A stretch of 64,000 nt of DNA, taken from NCBI GenBank assembly GCA_963700065.1, contig CAVOWJ010000014.1, positions 35,692 to 99,691 on the forward strand, given 5' to 3'. Positions within the stretch are counted from its first letter, which is position 1; each line of letters starts with the position of its first letter. Under the pieces are notes generated by a model. It made no database searches and was not told where the DNA came from. It was given only the letters and a program-made list of their open reading frames with translations. Shown here piece by piece: positions 1,197 to 55,924 of this stretch. A program made the translations under genes and the position numbers. The DNA comes from an uncultured Acidobacteriota bacterium. GTDB taxonomy: Bacteria; Acidobacteriota; Vicinamibacteria; Vicinamibacterales; JAKQTR01.

Positions 1197-1873
1197 GGCG
1201 CATGAGAGCGGTCGCGCTCGCCGTCCTCGCCGCGGTCGTCGGTGCCAGCGCGGCCTGGGCCCAGACCGGGACGGGGACGCCCCCCGTGACGGCAACAGCG
1301 CCGCCTCCCGCCGAGGCGGCGGCGCCAGAGAAGGCGTGGTCGTTCTCCGCCGCCGCCAACACCTATGTCCTTCCGGACGAGCCGAACTATGTGCAGCCGG
1401 CGGCCACGGCCGACCGCGGCTGGCTGCACCTCGAAGGGCGTTTCAACTACGAAGACCGCGACACCGGGTCGGTCTGGTTCGGCTACAACTTCAGCGTCGG
1501 CGACCGGCTCGTCTTCGAGTTCACCCCGATGGTGGGCGCCGTCTTCGGGAGCACGGATGGCGTGGCGCCGGGCTACAGTGGATCGCTCGGTTGGGGCATG
1601 CTGACGCTCTACAGCGAAACCGAGTTCGTGTTCGACGCCGGCGACTCCGCCGACAACTTCCTCTACACCTGGTCGGAATTCGAAGTGGCGCCGGTGGACT
1701 GGTTACGCTTCGGGCTGGTGGCTCAGCGCACGAAGGTCTACCAGACGGATTTCGACATCCAGCGCGGCTTCTTCGCAGGGGTGTCGTACAAGCGTGCCGA
1801 TCTGACGACGTACGTGTTCAACCCGGACGCCGACCGGCCCACGGTCGTTGTGACCGTCGCGGTCGGCTTCTAA
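1193..1873 (+). CDS. Putative outer-membrane beta-barrel protein
   Basis: ATGA overlap with the upstream stop; signal peptide (AWA-Q); alternating aromatic strands; C-terminal ...VAVGF. Confidence 0.65.
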   Translation: MRRMRAVALAVLAAVVGASAAWAQTGTGTPPVTATAPPPAEAAAPEKAWSFSAAANTYVLPDEPNYVQPAATADRGWLHLEGRFNYEDRDTGSVWFGYNFSVGDRLVFEFTPMVGAVFGSTDGVAPGYSGSLGWGMLTLYSETEFVFDAGDSADNFLYTWSEFEVAPVDWLRFGLVAQRTKVYQTDFDIQRGFFAGVSYKRADLTTYVFNPDADRPTVVVTVAVGF

Positions 1874-2149
1874 ATGAGAGGCCGCGACTTGAGATCGCCG
1901 CGGGGCGGGTCGAGCCTGGCAGCGGACGAGCCGTACGGAGCAGGCCGCGCGGGATGGCCGGAACCCGACGAGCGGGCGGAGGGTTCCCGGGCGCGGCGCG
2001 TAGCGGTCGAGCCAGCGCGGATCGCGCGAGCCCGTGGAGAGAGCCGGAACCCGACGCCAAGCCGAGGAGGGTTCCCGGCCTGCGGAGTCCGGCTCGGGAG
2101 CCGGCGGGCCCGACCCGCCAGCGACCCAGCATCGTGGCCTCTCATTTAG
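1870..2149. mobile_element. MITE-like element, long copy (terminal inverted repeats, TA duplication at CTAG)
   Basis: CTAAATGAGAGGCCGCGA (1870-1887) and TCGTGGCCTCTCATTTAG (2132-2149) form a 17/18 inverted repeat. Removing the element restores TTC TAG followed by the amylase RBS. Homologous to 14933-15039. Confidence 0.75.
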
Positions 2150-2168
2150 GAAGCGGGAGGGAGTCACC

Positions 2169-3665
2169 ATGGAGCGAACGCATCGGCCGGCGCCGCGCTA
2201 CCCGTCGCTTTACCAGGTCAACACCAGGGTGTGGCTGACGGACCTCGCGAGGGCCCTGGGCCGCCCGGCCACGCTCGACGACATCCCGGACGCCGAGCTC
2301 GACCGGCTCGCCGCGTCGGGCTTCGACTGGGTCTGGCTGCTGAGCGTCTGGCAAACGGGCGAGGCCGGGCGCCAGGTGTCGCGGGCGAACCCCGAGTGGC
2401 GAAGGGAGTTCGAGGCGACCCTCCCCGACCTGCGCGAGGACGACATTGCCGGGTCCGGGTTTGCCATTACGGCCTACCGCGTGGCGGACCACCTGGGAGG
2501 CGACGCGGCGCTCGCCAGGCTCCGCAAACGGCTGCAGAAACGGCGCCTCCGGCTGATGCTGGACTTCGTGCCGAACCACTCGGGACTCGACCATCCATGG
2601 GTGCTCGAGCATCCTGACTACTATGTGGCAGGGTCCGAGGAAGACCTGGCGCGAGCGCCCGCGAACTACACACGTCCTCCGCTGGCGCCAGGCGGCCTGA
2701 TCCTCGCCCACGGCCGCGACCCGTACTTCCCGGGCTGGCCGGACACGCTGCAACTCGACTACGGCAACCCGGCGGCGCGGCAGGCCATGATCGCCGAGTT
2801 GACGCGCATTGCCGACCAGTGCGACGGCGTGCGCTGCGACATGGCGATGCTGTTGCTCCCCGACGTGTTCGAACGCACGTGGGGCCGGCCGTCCGGACCG
2901 TTCTGGCCGCGCGCCACCGAAGCGGTGCGCCAGCGGGTGCCCGGGTTCTGCTTCATGGCCGAGGTCTACTGGGACCTGGAATGGGCGCTGCAGCAGCAGG
3001 GGTTCGACTACACTTACGACAAGCGGCTGTACGACCGCCTGCGTGAGGGGCAGGCCCGGCCGGTGCGCGAGCACCTGCACGCGGGCCTCGACTTCCAGGA
3101 CAGGCTGGCCCGCTTCCTCGAGAACCACGACGAGCCGCGCGCGGCGGCAACGTTCCCGGAAGGCCGGCATGAAGCGGCGGCCGTGCTCACCTATCTGGCG
3201 CCTGGCTTTCGCTTCTTCCACCACGGCCAGTTTGAGGGGCGCACCCGCAGGATCTCCCCGCACCTCTGCCGGGCCCCGGACGAGCCGGTCAACGAGCGCC
3301 TTGCCGCGTTCTACGATCGCCTGCTGGCCGTGTTGCGGCGCCCCGAGGTGCGCCACGGCGACTGGCGGCTGCTGCCGTGCGGGGTCGCATGGGACGGCAA
3401 TGCGACCTGGGAGAACTACGTCGCCTATGGCTGGGATCAGGGCGGTGAGAACCGGCTGATCGTTGCCGTCAACGCGGCGCCGGTATACGGCCAGTGCTTC
3501 ATCCGGCTGCCGTTCCACGACCTCGGCGGCCGCCGGTGGCGGCTGACCGACCTGATGGGCACGGCGGTCTACGATCGGGATGGCAGCGAGCTGCAGACCT
3601 GGGGCCTGTTCCTGAACGAGCCCCCGTGGAAGGCCCAGGTCTTCGCCATGAGTGCAGTAGAATGA
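2169..3665 (+). CDS. GH13 alpha-amylase family glycoside hydrolase
   Basis: RBS GGGAGGGAG; conserved regions LDFVPNH, DGVRCDMAM, MAEVY and FLENHDE. Confidence 0.9.
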   Translation: MERTHRPAPRYPSLYQVNTRVWLTDLARALGRPATLDDIPDAELDRLAASGFDWVWLLSVWQTGEAGRQVSRANPEWRREFEATLPDLREDDIAGSGFAITAYRVADHLGGDAALARLRKRLQKRRLRLMLDFVPNHSGLDHPWVLEHPDYYVAGSEEDLARAPANYTRPPLAPGGLILAHGRDPYFPGWPDTLQLDYGNPAARQAMIAELTRIADQCDGVRCDMAMLLLPDVFERTWGRPSGPFWPRATEAVRQRVPGFCFMAEVYWDLEWALQQQGFDYTYDKRLYDRLREGQARPVREHLHAGLDFQDRLARFLENHDEPRAAATFPEGRHEAAAVLTYLAPGFRFFHHGQFEGRTRRISPHLCRAPDEPVNERLAAFYDRLLAVLRRPEVRHGDWRLLPCGVAWDGNATWENYVAYGWDQGGENRLIVAVNAAPVYGQCFIRLPFHDLGGRRWRLTDLMGTAVYDRDGSELQTWGLFLNEPPWKAQVFAMSAVE

Positions 3666-14932: not shown

Positions 14933-15039
14933 CTAGATAGGAAGCCGCGATTCGGGATCACCGCAGGACAGACCGGGGCCGGCTCGGGATCCGCCGGCCC
15001 CGGTCCTTCGGCGACTCAGAATCGCGGTCTTCTGTATAG
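14933..15039. mobile_element. MITE-like element, short (internally deleted) copy of the 1870-2149 family
   Basis: Ends CTAGATAGGAAGCCGCGATTC and GAATCGCGGTCTTCTGTATAG; ungapped similarity to both ends of 1870-2149; internal perfect 13-bp hairpin GACCGGGGCCGGC/GCCGGCCCCGGTC. Confidence 0.7.
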
Positions 15040-54738: not shown

Positions 54739-54773
54739 GACGCGTCCAGACCCCCTGCTTTATGATCGCCGAA

Positions 54774-54834
54774 AAAAGGGGACAGGCCCCTTATTCGTTC
54801 CGCTGCTCCAAGAAAAAGGGGCCTGTCCCCTTTT
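54774..54834. repeat. Perfect 19-bp inverted repeat with internally palindromic arms (REP-like, possibly a terminator)
   Basis: AAAAGGGGACAGGCCCCTT-N23-AAGGGGCCTGTCCCCTTTT. Confidence 0.75.
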
Positions 54835-54835
54835 C

Positions 54836-55924
54836 TCACCCTTCCGCCGGCTCGTCGCGGTCGGCCGAATCGCCCGGCACCGCCGCGGCTTCCGGGGCCC
54901 CTGCCGGGTCCACGTCCTGCCGAGCCACCAGCCGATCGGCCACCCAGCCGAGGGCGGCCTCGTCGCCCCGCGCCAGCAGCGCCTCGAGCGGCGACCGCGC
55001 GAAGGCCGACGACTCGCGCGTCTGCATGCCGGGCCACGAGCCGTCGGCGCGGCGCGGCGCGTAACGGCACCAGAACCCCAGGTGCCACACGAGGAACTCG
55101 CGCAGGCGCGTCAGCCCGTGCTCGTCCTCGCCCCAGTGTTCGCGGGCGAGCTCGACATAGCGCCGGTAGATGGCGAGCCGCTCGTCCGCGCGGATGTCCC
55201 AGTAGCCGTCCAGCGCTTCCTTGAAGAGCCACGGCTTGATGAGCGCGCCGCGCCCGGCCATGACAGCCACACATCCCGACCTGGCTCTCGCCTCCGCGAT
55301 CTCGTGCGGAAACAGGATGTCGCCGTTGCCCACCACGGGCACCGGCACGGCGGCCGCCACTTCCCCGATCGCATCCCAGTCGGCGGACTGGCGGTACCGG
55401 GCGTCCCGCGTCCGGCCGTGCACGATGACGGCGTCGGCCCCTCCCTCCACGGCGGCCCGGGCCTGCTCCAGGTAGTTCCGATCGCCGTCGTTCCACCCCA
55501 GGCGGATCTTCGCCGTGACCGGCACCGCCGCGACCGCGCGCTTCATGGCTTCCACGATGCGCCGGATGCGCTTGGGCTGGCGGCCCAGGGCCGCGCCCAT
55601 CCCCTTGCGGGTGAAATGATCGATGGGGCAGCCGAAGTTGACGTCCACCAGGTCCGCCCCGCGTGACTCGACCAGGGCCGCCGCCCACCCCATCTCCTCC
55701 GGGTCGGTGCCCGCCAGCTGCACGCCGAAGAACGGCTCGTCGGGGGCGCGCCTGATCAGGGCGAACTCGCCCCGGCGCTTCTGCTTGAGGCGGCGGGCCA
55801 CCGTCATCTCGCTCATGAGCACCCGCGCGCCAAGCTCGGCGCACAGGCGCCGGTACGGCAGGTTGCCGCCCCTGGTCATCGGGGCCAGCACCACCGTCCC
55901 CTCGAGCCGCTGCCGGAGGTCCAT
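54836..55924 (-). CDS. tRNA-dihydrouridine synthase family protein
   Basis: Motifs LAPMT, DVNFGCP, KIRLG, VHGRT and GNGDI. Confidence 0.9.
   Translation of the reverse strand: MDLRQRLEGTVVLAPMTRGGNLPYRRLCAELGARVLMSEMTVARRLKQKRRGEFALIRRAPDEPFFGVQLAGTDPEEMGWAAALVESRGADLVDVNFGCPIDHFTRKGMGAALGRQPKRIRRIVEAMKRAVAAVPVTAKIRLGWNDGDRNYLEQARAAVEGGADAVIVHGRTRDARYRQSADWDAIGEVAAAVPVPVVGNGDILFPHEIAEARARSGCVAVMAGRGALIKPWLFKEALDGYWDIRADERLAIYRRYVELAREHWGEDEHGLTRLREFLVWHLGFWCRYAPRRADGSWPGMQTRESSAFARSPLEALLARGDEAALGWVADRLVARQDVDPAGAPEAAAVPGDSADRDEPAEG

What the first reader, a model, noticed from the sequence alone, without database searches (positions are those of the whole stretch)
1870..2149. Unannotated MITE inserted in a stop codon, with a reconstructable empty site
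Seen: 17/18-bp terminal inverted repeats (CTAAATGAGAGGCCGCGA ... TCGTGGCCTCTCATTTAG) bound a 280-bp intergenic block. Deleting 1873-2146 plus one TA gives GGC TTC TAG GAAGCGGGAGGGAGTCACC ATG. That is a normal stop codon followed by the amylase RBS and start, so the element landed in CTAG, duplicated TA and changed the stop from TAG to TAA. Established: TA duplication at CTAG is typical of IS630/ITm-family elements. Inference: a non-autonomous element mobilised in trans, which now sits inside an operon transcript.
Basis: partly seen in the sequence, partly recalled or inferred. Interest (0 to 1): 0.7.

Follow-up and report, generated by a model that had tools for sequence, protein, structure and literature searches.

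The report
Palindromic mobile repeat in a stop codon
A 276-base hairpin-forming mobile repeat of soil Acidobacteria (order Vicinamibacterales) has landed exactly in the stop codon between two genes; this is an ordinary kind of bacterial miniature transposon, though its central part looks conserved.

Summary
Window 1870-1887 and 2132-2149 are 17/18 inverted repeats (the mismatch is G·T). Two same-genus genomes have the same gene pair without the block, and one reads TTC TAG GAC..ATG, almost exactly the predicted empty site. The element is multi-copy in its own genome: 3 full copies, 2 tandem core-only units, at least 5 short forms and 4 with another interior. It is patchy among relatives, in 9 of 22 family genomes and 3 of 9 in the genus. 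An exact core pattern matched only Vicinamibacterales/Acidobacteriota MAGs. A second copy also has a CTAG empty site.

It is therefore a non-autonomous mobile insertion at the TA of CTAG. The transposase is unknown. No IS with matching ends was found at 44 IS630-type or about 33 Y1-type loci, nor in a metagenome scan.

- The whole element is one long hairpin, and 31 of 59 pairs show compensatory changes.
- The plus strand folds better in 32 of 35 copies.
- In two orthologous pairs the 173-nt core is 91% and 97% identical, against 76-83% at third codon positions.

The core thus looks constrained, as reported for ERIC-type repeats. Verdict: new member of a known kind, of moderate interest.

The parts
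1202..1873 (+). Its stop codon TAA 1871-1873 is built from the target TA plus the first base of the element.
   Evidence: No Pfam family. Orthologues in G002 and G003 end TTC TAG and TTC TAA.
1871..1872 (.). Left TA, the putative target duplication, within C-TA.
   Evidence: The G002 empty site has a single CTAG.
1873..2146 (+). Element body, 274 nt. Alternatively 1872-2147, 276 nt, if nothing was duplicated.
   Evidence: Absent from G002 and G003. 90% and 86% identical copies on contig C5.
1870..1887 (+). Left terminal inverted repeat. The conserved terminus extends to about 1909.
   Evidence: The terminus profile finds 6 strong and about 9 weaker matches in the genome.
2132..2149 (+). Right terminal inverted repeat. 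The conserved terminus starts at about 2103.
1928..2100 (+). Conserved core of about 173 nt, forming the inner part of the long hairpin. It has two GGAACCC/GGGTTCC arm pairs, two conserved purine-rich internal loops and an invariant apex.
   Evidence: Alignment A2 has 50 invariant columns. Covariation. Orthologous identity 91.3% and 97.1%.
2147..2148 (.). Right TA, within TA-G.
2155..2163 (+). Shine-Dalgarno-like GGGAGGGAG of the downstream gene, untouched by the insertion.
   Evidence: G002 has GCGGAGGGA at the same place.
2169..3665 (+). Downstream gene, alpha-amylase-family catalytic domain.
   Evidence: PF00128, E 1.6e-10. ORF.
14933..15039 (+). Second member in the window (copy G). A 107-nt short form flanked C-TA..TA-G, with termini identical to full copy C and a remnant of the core's 3' end at its apex.
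   Evidence: It lies between a PF10136 gene fragment and an MscS-like gene.

Best explanation
The block is one copy of a non-autonomous, palindromic mobile repeat (a MITE in the broad sense) found in Vicinamibacterales. It integrated at the TA of a CTAG formed by the last codon and TAG stop of the upstream gene. TA now sits on both sides, the stop is TAA, and the downstream ribosome-binding site is intact. That much is shown. The rest is inferred. The element has no gene of its own, so it must be moved in trans. The CTAG/TA signature points to an IS630/Tc1-mariner-type DDE transposase, but that enzyme has not been identified. In a 69% G+C genome TA-containing sites are concentrated at stop codons, which explains why many copies sit on a stop codon. 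The two flanking genes are co-directional and only about 20 nt apart in the empty state. The element is therefore probably transcribed with them and folds into a roughly 130-bp imperfect hairpin that holds the stop codon and the RBS at its base. The core of the hairpin is kept by selection on a single-stranded form of the + strand. The most likely form is RNA acting on processing or stability of the transcript, as proposed for ERIC and Correia repeats.
For: Insertion: the orthologous junctions in G002 and G003 lack 276 nt, and G002 reads CTAG. The second full copy C also has a CTAG empty site in G002. Multi-copy: own genome has B (90%), C (86%), two tandem core units, short forms E, F, G, I, P, and H, J, K, Lx with another interior between the same termini. 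Recent activity: C and G share identical termini, and E and F share one deletion junction at different loci. Patchy distribution: 9 of 22 family genomes, and 3 of 9 in the genus. The exact core pattern gave 24 stretches in 9 MAGs, all titled Vicinamibacterales, Acidobacteriota or Acidobacteria. No coding capacity: the 91-aa frames have no Pfam hit, and copies B and C lack the ATG. Target signature: most copies are flanked C-TA..TA-G or a transition of it. IS630-family ISs of these genomes have the same flanks, and the one in this genome sits on the TAG stop of its neighbour. TA duplication is described for the family (PMC2170065, passages read), and a CTAG preference for IS630 appears in that paper's reference list (Tenzen & Ohtsubo 1991, title only). 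Structure: 59 consensus pairs, 31 with changes on both sides. 94.1% of cells are paired against 83.4% in shuffles (0 of 500 reach the observed value) and 32-41% when slid. Polarity: the + strand is more stable in 32 of 35 copies with RNA parameters (mean -12 kcal/mol) and with DNA parameters (mean -6.4). G·U pairs number 74 against 24-26 A·C. Constraint: orthologous copies in G021/G012 have the core at 158/173 (91.3%) against third codon positions at 76-78%. In G006/G007 the core is 168/173 (97.1%) against 81.5-82.9%.
Against: No autonomous element with matching ends was found. The own-genome IS630 copy has unrelated repeats. None of 16 + 28 DDE_3 loci matched the terminus profiles. The metagenome scan for the terminus gave 5 stretches, of which 2 were real copies and none was long. 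DDE_3 presence does not track the element. Because the target is a palindrome, the TA duplication is not proven. Across genera the core is better conserved than the termini, and several copies (D1, L039, L056, L057, L140, L143, L146) lack the termini altogether. That is the reverse of what a transposase-driven family usually shows. Strand polarity has no place in a plain DDE cut-and-paste model. Orientation relative to neighbouring genes shows no clear bias. With a crude GC3-based gene caller, tandem-gene contexts split 4 co-directional to 3 opposite, and many copies lie between convergent genes. Transcription was not shown.
Confidence: 0.7

Rival explanations
1. The conserved core is a functional structured RNA (or single-stranded DNA) module in its own right, kept by host-level selection in intergenic spacers. 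The terminal repeats are only its vehicle. On this reading the copy at 1870-2149 is a cis-acting element of the two-gene transcript, affecting processing, stability or coupling, rather than neutral junk.
For: The core is 91.3% and 97.1% identical in two orthologous pairs, against 76-83% at third codon positions and 82% in adjacent intergenic DNA. The outer stems decay to 55-90%. 31 of 59 pairs show compensatory change. The long-range pairing is supported by L062 and L132, where each arm matches its distant partner and not the near one. The + strand is favoured in 32 of 35 copies. 50 columns are invariant, including unpaired apex and loop residues. Orthologous copies sit between hdrA-like and mvhD-like genes in two genera. 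Contigs from two RNA libraries of one study hold core-like pieces, a weak hint because DNA carry-over is not excluded.
Against: Presence is patchy and polymorphic. There is no orientation bias to genes. The core occurs inverted relative to the termini in L169. No Rfam family matches. Arm-to-arm template switching in palindromes could mimic compensatory change. Copies are related, so the 32/35 and shuffle statistics overstate the case.
Confidence: 0.25
2. The element is moved as single-stranded DNA by a Y1 (HUH) transposase, in the manner of REPINs with RAYTs or IS200/IS605 derivatives. It would insert 3' of a ..CTA target and itself end in ..TA, which would mimic a TA duplication.
For: Hairpin structure and strand polarity are what such enzymes read. 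The genome has two Y1 genes, and one (L053) hits the REP-associated transposase model at 70 bits, below the cut-off of 80. A degenerate composite copy lies about 120 nt upstream of the other Y1 gene. REPINs are inverted doublets that form hairpins and sit beside single-copy RAYTs (PMC3116915, passages read).
Against: The L052 Y1 gene is an IS200-type IS with its own end hairpins, conserved in G009 and G013 and unlike the element's ends. That type was found in only 3 of 22 family genomes and not in G007 or G011, which have the most copies. No terminus match was found at about 33 Y1 loci. L053 has no repeat in its flanks. Three carrier genomes (G006, G021, G012) gave no Y1 hit. The termini are true inverted repeats, and copy number is in the tens rather than hundreds.
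Confidence: 0.1
3. The block is a chance inverted repeat in an ordinary, locally evolved spacer.
For: A single 17/18 repeat within 440 nt is not vanishingly rare: 1 of 10 shuffled windows had one.
Against: There are full-length copies at 86-95% identity elsewhere and in other genomes. Precise absence at the orthologous site. Fold z-score of -6.6.
Confidence: 0.01

Closest known systems
ERIC / IRU repeats of Enterobacteriaceae (about 127-bp MITE-like intergenic repeats)
   Same: Imperfect palindrome with terminal inverted repeats. TA at both ends (PMC3184786, passage read: ERIC-type sequences have TIRs, target duplications and a 5'-TA-3' motif at both termini). Intergenic within transcription units. 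Folds into a long stem-loop as RNA. Size variants arise by internal insertion or deletion. No known cognate transposase. Recalled, not checked here: sequence conservation higher than expected for junk, and orientation-dependent effects on mRNA decay in Yersinia.
   Different: No sequence similarity was tested or expected. This element is twice as long, far more G+C-rich, restricted to Vicinamibacterales, present in tens of copies at most, and prefers the CTAG context (2 of 2 empty sites).
IS630/Tc1-mariner-derived MITEs
   Same: TA target that appears on both sides. CTAG context as for IS630 (reference title in PMC2170065). IS630-family ISs in the same genomes show identical C-TA..TA-G flanks.
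   Different: The defining link, ends shared with an IS630-family IS, was looked for and not found.
Correia elements (CREE) of Neisseria
   Same: Small TIR-bounded repeat listed as a MITE (PMC3184786, Table 1), often next to gene starts, with effects on expression. TA duplication and cleavage of the transcribed hairpin are recalled, not checked.
   Different: No promoter-like site was found in this copy, and the only terminator-like site lies on the - strand. The sequence, host and length are unrelated.
REPINs with RAYT transposases
   Same: Inverted doublet forming a hairpin, non-autonomous, with conservation of structure (PMC3116915).
   Different: No RAYT flanked by these repeats, no co-occurrence, much lower copy number and a longer element.
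MITEPsy1 of Pseudomonas syringae (IS5-related)
   Same: Inserts at CTAG or YTAA (PMC3189936, passage read).
   Different: MITEPsy1 duplicates the whole 4-nt target. Here at most 2 nt are duplicated, since the filled site has one C and one G.

Membership tests
Bacterial MITE (non-autonomous TIR element) | Terminal inverted repeats | tested here: met
   17/18 at 1870-1887 / 2132-2149. Shuffles average 0.1 such pairs per window.
Bacterial MITE (non-autonomous TIR element) | Small size, no transposase gene | tested here: met
   274-276 nt. The two 91-aa frames have no Pfam hit and are not kept in copies B and C.
Bacterial MITE (non-autonomous TIR element) | Several dispersed copies in the genome | tested here: met
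   3 full, 2 core-only, at least 5 short and 4 with another interior, on 7 contigs.
Bacterial MITE (non-autonomous TIR element) | Presence/absence polymorphism with a clean empty site | tested here: met
   Copy A against G002 and G003. Copy C against G002. For copy B the G002 spacer was too diverged to align.
Bacterial MITE (non-autonomous TIR element) | Target-site duplication | tested here: inconclusive
   TA lies on both sides and a single TA in the empty sites. Because CTAG is palindromic, insertion between T and A without duplication fits as well.
Bacterial MITE (non-autonomous TIR element) | A related autonomous IS with the same ends | tested here: not met
   Not found in the own genome (87.5% complete), at 44 DDE_3 loci, at about 33 Y1 loci, or in 5 metagenome stretches. 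The searches were neither exhaustive nor across all transposase families.
IS630/Tc1-mariner derivative | Insertion at TA, with CTAG preference | tested here: met
   2 of 2 readable empty sites are CTAG. Most copies are flanked C-TA..TA-G or transitions of it.
IS630/Tc1-mariner derivative | Terminal repeats homologous to those of an IS630-family element | tested here: not met
   The repeats recovered at 8 of the 16 IS630-family loci scanned for inverted repeats, in this genome and its family, differ from the element's. No profile hit at E<=0.05 or 0.1.
IS630/Tc1-mariner derivative | Co-occurrence with a DDE_3 transposase | tested here: not met
   DDE_3 is present in 4 of 9 carrier genomes and 7 of 13 non-carriers in the family. 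G011, with 18 hits, has none.
REPIN / RAYT system | Single-copy RAYT gene flanked by the cognate repeat | tested here: not met
   L053 (RAYT-like, 70 bits against a cut-off of 80) has no repeat in its flanks. L052 is an IS200-type IS with its own end hairpins.
REPIN / RAYT system | Repeat and transposase co-distributed | tested here: not met
Described RNA families (Rfam 15) | Match to a covariance model | tested here: not met
   No hit inside 1870-2149 even at E<=10.

The most novel reading that the evidence does not exclude
The roughly 173-nt core is a new structured RNA class of Vicinamibacterales that spreads as the cargo of a TA-targeting palindromic transposon. Once it lands between cistrons it is kept by purifying selection, because the folded hairpin governs processing, stability or translational coupling of the operon transcript. 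It would be a mobile, ready-made intercistronic regulator.
Probability: 0.22. Interest if true: 0.65.

Novelty: new member of a known kind. Interest (0 to 1): 0.4.

Why it matters
It adds a documented mobile repeat family, with two clean empty sites, to an abundant but poorly studied soil order in which repeats are unannotated. My two literature searches for MITEs in Acidobacteria or Vicinamibacter returned nothing on such an element. It also shows why TA-targeting elements end up on stop codons in high-G+C genomes. The family breaks assemblies, since many G011 hits lie at contig ends, and it can be mistaken for a regulatory RNA. If the constraint on the core is real, it offers a testable case of a transposon-borne RNA structure co-opted inside operons.

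Tried and rejected
1. Local-hairpin model. The two GGAACCC..GGGTTCC units looked like two direct-repeat hairpins of the IS200/IS605 LE/RE type. Covariation in L062/L066/L070 and L132 shows that each arm pairs with the distant partner, so the element is one long hairpin.

2. RAYT link. A repeat next to the L052 Y1 gene suggested a REPIN system. The gene proved to be an IS200-type IS with its own conserved end hairpins, and that type is rare in the family.

3. Nested-insertion model. I considered that the core had inserted into the apex of a short palindrome. Copy G keeps a remnant of the core's 3' end, and the C/G and A/E boundaries differ. Both are flanked by 5-6-nt direct repeats. Short forms are therefore better read as slippage deletions. 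For E/F, insertion is not excluded.

4. Orientation bias. A first tally looked like 13 co-directional to 5 opposite. On strict recount the tandem contexts split 4:3 and the rest are convergent or divergent, so there is no bias. My gene calls rest on ORF length and GC3 only.

5. Decay pattern of the flanking TA. In the own genome 9 of 10 departures from TA hit the base next to the element. In relatives the split was 7 inner, 7 outer and 3 both. No conclusion on duplication follows.

6. Order-wide search with the 81-nt short form. 8 of 121 genomes had a match, but only 7 candidates per genome were scored, so this is useless for finding long elements.

7. Public runs. No run held half of the sampled words. 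The laid contigs are short and mostly from relatives. One DNA contig (X2) bridges the left junction at 1739-1911 with 4 differences. The joints across the element had short sides or unknown inserts, and I do not read them as empty alleles. Uncovered parts mean nothing.

8. Promoter/terminator scan. No promoter-like site was found. One terminator-like hairpin lies on the - strand in the left terminus.

9. Earlier findings of the scan: nothing relevant.

10. The repeat finder did not list the finding's repeat pair, so I checked it with my own script.

Full report
**What is in the sequence**

At window 1870-1887 and 2132-2149 lie 18-nt arms that are complementary in 17 positions. The mismatch is a G·T pair on the + strand.
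- The upstream ORF (ATG 1202, 223 aa, no Pfam family) ends with TAA at 1871-1873, inside the left arm.
- Six bases after the right arm comes GGGAGGGAG, and then ATG 2169 of a gene with an alpha-amylase catalytic domain (PF00128, E 1.6e-10).
- In my scan of the window only two arm pairs reach 17/18 within 440 nt. Ten dinucleotide shuffles gave a mean of 0.1.
- The 280 nt fold into one long hairpin far better than shuffles: z -6.6 on the + strand and -6.4 on the - strand.
- Rfam has nothing for it, even at E 10.

**It is an insertion**

A 1301-nt query spanning both flanks was searched in 40 relatives. It found the two flanking genes adjacent in two genomes of the same genus, with the block missing.
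- G002 reads GGC TTC TAG GACGCGGAGGGATTCACC ATG in the alignment.
- G003 reads TTC TAA followed by a short spacer.
- The filled site is TTC-TA-[274 nt]-TA-GGAAG, so 276 nt were added at a CTAG and the stop changed from TAG to TAA.
- G007 carries the repeat family elsewhere. It has a different gene upstream of its amylase homologue and no element there.

**It is a repeat family**

BLAST and terminus profiles against the 5.54-Mb genome (15 contigs, 87.5% complete) find the following:
- two more full-length copies on contig C5, 90% and 86% identical;
- two tandem units of the inner 200 nt with different outer stems;
- short forms that keep only the roughly 40-nt termini: E, F, G, I and P;
- four elements (H, J, K, Lx) with the same termini around an unrelated interior;
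- three solitary termini.

Copy G lies in this window at 14933-15039.

E and F share the same internal junction at different loci. C and G have identical termini. The termini therefore suffice for spread, and the family has been active recently.

The short forms are best read as deletions between 5-6-nt direct repeats, because G keeps a remnant of the core.

**Distribution**

- The element is found in 9 of 22 genomes of the family, but in only 3 of 9 genomes of its own genus.
- An exact 38-letter degenerate core pattern was scanned over one genome for each of 185,579 species. It hit 24 stretches in 9 MAGs, all titled Vicinamibacterales, Acidobacteriota or Acidobacteria.
- A 69% G+C Vicinamibacterales genome is thus the likely host.

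**Target**

A second empty site could be read. Where G000 has copy C flanked C-TA..TA-G, G002 has TTTTTC TAG AAACG. For copy B the spacer in G002 was too diverged to align.
- Most copies, here and in other genomes, begin C-TA and end TA-G or a transition of these.
- Many sit on the stop codon of the upstream gene.
- Stop codons are where TA and CTAG are to be found in such a G+C-rich genome.
- IS630-family insertion sequences in these genomes have the same flanks. The single copy in this genome itself sits on the TAG stop of its neighbour.
- TA duplication is established for the family (PMC2170065, abstract and passages read). The CTAG preference of IS630 is known to me from the title of Tenzen & Ohtsubo 1991 in that paper's reference list.
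- CTAG is a palindrome, so an insertion of 276 nt between T and A with no duplication explains the data equally well.

**Who moves it: not settled**

- The terminal repeats of the IS630 copy in this genome are unrelated to the element's.
- The terminus profiles match none of 16 DDE_3 loci from the family, 28 from the order, or about 33 Y1 loci.
- DDE_3 is present in 4 of 9 carrier genomes and in 7 of 13 non-carriers.
- An exact-terminus scan of the metagenome collection gave 5 stretches. Two were ordinary copies, three were solitary or chance matches, and none was a long element.
- A Y1 gene with a degenerate composite copy upstream looked like a RAYT. It is instead an IS200-type IS with its own conserved end hairpins, and it is present in only 3 of 22 family genomes.

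I aligned 35 copies:
- A, B, C and one tandem unit;
- 20 from related genomes;
- 11 new ones from the pattern scan.

Rows dropped:
- L041, cut by the end of its contig;
- L061, which has a roughly 40-nt insertion;
- L058, which is partly deleted;
- the second tandem unit;
- the scan loci that repeated sequences already held.

The consensus is a single long hairpin of 59 pairs.
- 31 pairs show changes on both sides.
- 94.1% of cells pair, against 83.4% in shuffles (0 of 500 reach the observed value) and 32-41% when the partner is slid.
- What look like two direct-repeat hairpins are in fact long-range partners, as shown by L062/L066/L070 and L132.

Groups of copies from different genera differ in the outer stem by paired substitutions. 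This rules out independent target palindromes as the source of the outer-stem variation.

The fold has polarity:
- The + strand is the more stable one in 32 of 35 copies, with both RNA and DNA parameters.
- G·U pairs number 74, against 24-26 A·C.
- The + strand is purine-rich in its unpaired parts.

Two pairs of orthologous copies allow a rate comparison:

| Pair | Core identity | Third codon positions of flanking genes | First and second positions | Outer stems |
|---|---|---|---|---|
| G021 / G012 (different genera) | 158/173 (91.3%) | 76-78% | 90-94.5% | 55% and 75% |
| G006 / G007 (same genus) | 168/173 (97.1%) | 81.5-82.9% | 88.6-96.4% | 86-90% |

For G006/G007 the neighbouring intergenic DNA is 82% identical.

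So the core evolves like a constrained sequence. Caveats: this rests on two pairs only, the copies are related, and arm-to-arm repair in palindromes could produce paired changes without selection.

**Evidence against a simple RNA gene**

- The orientation of the core relative to neighbouring genes is not biased. With my crude GC3-based gene calls, tandem contexts split 4 co-directional to 3 opposite, and many copies lie between convergent genes.
- One metagenome copy has the core inverted between the termini.
- This copy has no promoter-like site.
- Public runs gave only short metagenome contigs. Core-like pieces occur in two RNA libraries of one study, which is a hint at most.

**Comparison with what is known**

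The element meets the descriptive definition of a bacterial MITE in PMC3184786 (passages read): terminal inverted repeats, flanking repeats, a core without a transposase, and a long stem-loop as RNA.

It works most like ERIC/IRU and Correia repeats, with TA flanks, an intergenic position inside transcription units and an unknown mover.

It cannot be filed as an IS630 derivative. The target signature fits, but the defining shared ends were sought and not found. It fails the REPIN/RAYT tests. MITEPsy1 also uses CTAG but duplicates all four bases (PMC3189936, passage read), which the single C and G here exclude.

My literature searches found no description of such a repeat. For Acidobacteria plus MITE, 7 papers were seen as listings only. 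For Vicinamibacter plus MITE, 10 papers held both terms; the 8 listed were all about mites or unrelated topics. Subscription literature and ISfinder/Dfam were not searchable.

**Verdict**

- The family assignment of the transposase and the co-transcription remain inferences.
- It is a new member of a known kind.
- The signs of a constrained, strand-specific core lift it somewhat above a routine repeat annotation.

Noticed in passing
window 14933-15039: A 107-nt short form of the same family (copy G), flanked C-TA..TA-G. It lies between a gene fragment matching only the C-terminal part of PF10136 (site-specific recombinase) and an MscS-like channel gene. Its termini are identical to full copy C on contig C5.
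   Followed up: partly
G000 contig C5:860380-860915 (loci L004/L005): Two near-identical tandem units (period 245 nt) of the core, with a different outer stem and without the usual termini.
   Followed up: partly
G000, about 28 loci, e.g. C4:11886-12058, C8:284229-284390, C6:71074-71230, L052:2011-2236: A second palindromic repeat family of about 100-170 nt. In four copies it sits between the same termini as the element studied, and its interior occurs in both orientations (K versus Lx).
   Followed up: partly
L052:~1380-2000 (G000 C2:~516,900-517,500); L081-L083: An IS200-type insertion sequence (143-aa Y1 transposase, PF01797 at 137.6 bits, no NCBIfam hit). The same small hairpin occurs at both ends in the copies of G009 (2 copies) and G013; in G000 it was seen at one end.
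   Followed up: partly
L031:1-2070 (G000 C14:~209,559-211,630, outside the window): An IS630-family IS with 20-nt perfect inverted repeats, inserted on the TAG stop of a 286-aa ORF. That ORF lies in a markedly A+T-rich stretch of an otherwise 69% G+C genome and is probably foreign DNA.
   Followed up: no
window 54771-54837: A 26-nt-arm palindrome (92% complementary, 15-nt loop) with A/T runs on both sides. It looks like a bidirectional terminator.
   Followed up: no
L040:1736-1790 and the same place in L044: The FlpD/MvhD-like gene just downstream of the orthologous element copies has an in-frame TGA 17 codons after its ATG, and the Pfam match begins only after it. This may be a selenocysteine codon.
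   Followed up: no
L128, L148 (alignment A2 columns ~118-160); L061, L145, L135, L147: Some copies carry an extra hairpin of about 40 nt inserted in an internal loop of the core, so the family grows by nested additions as well as shrinking by deletions.
   Followed up: no
G011: Many hits to half of the core lie at contig ends in this 410-contig assembly. The repeat probably breaks short-read assemblies, and copy numbers in draft genomes are underestimates.
   Followed up: no
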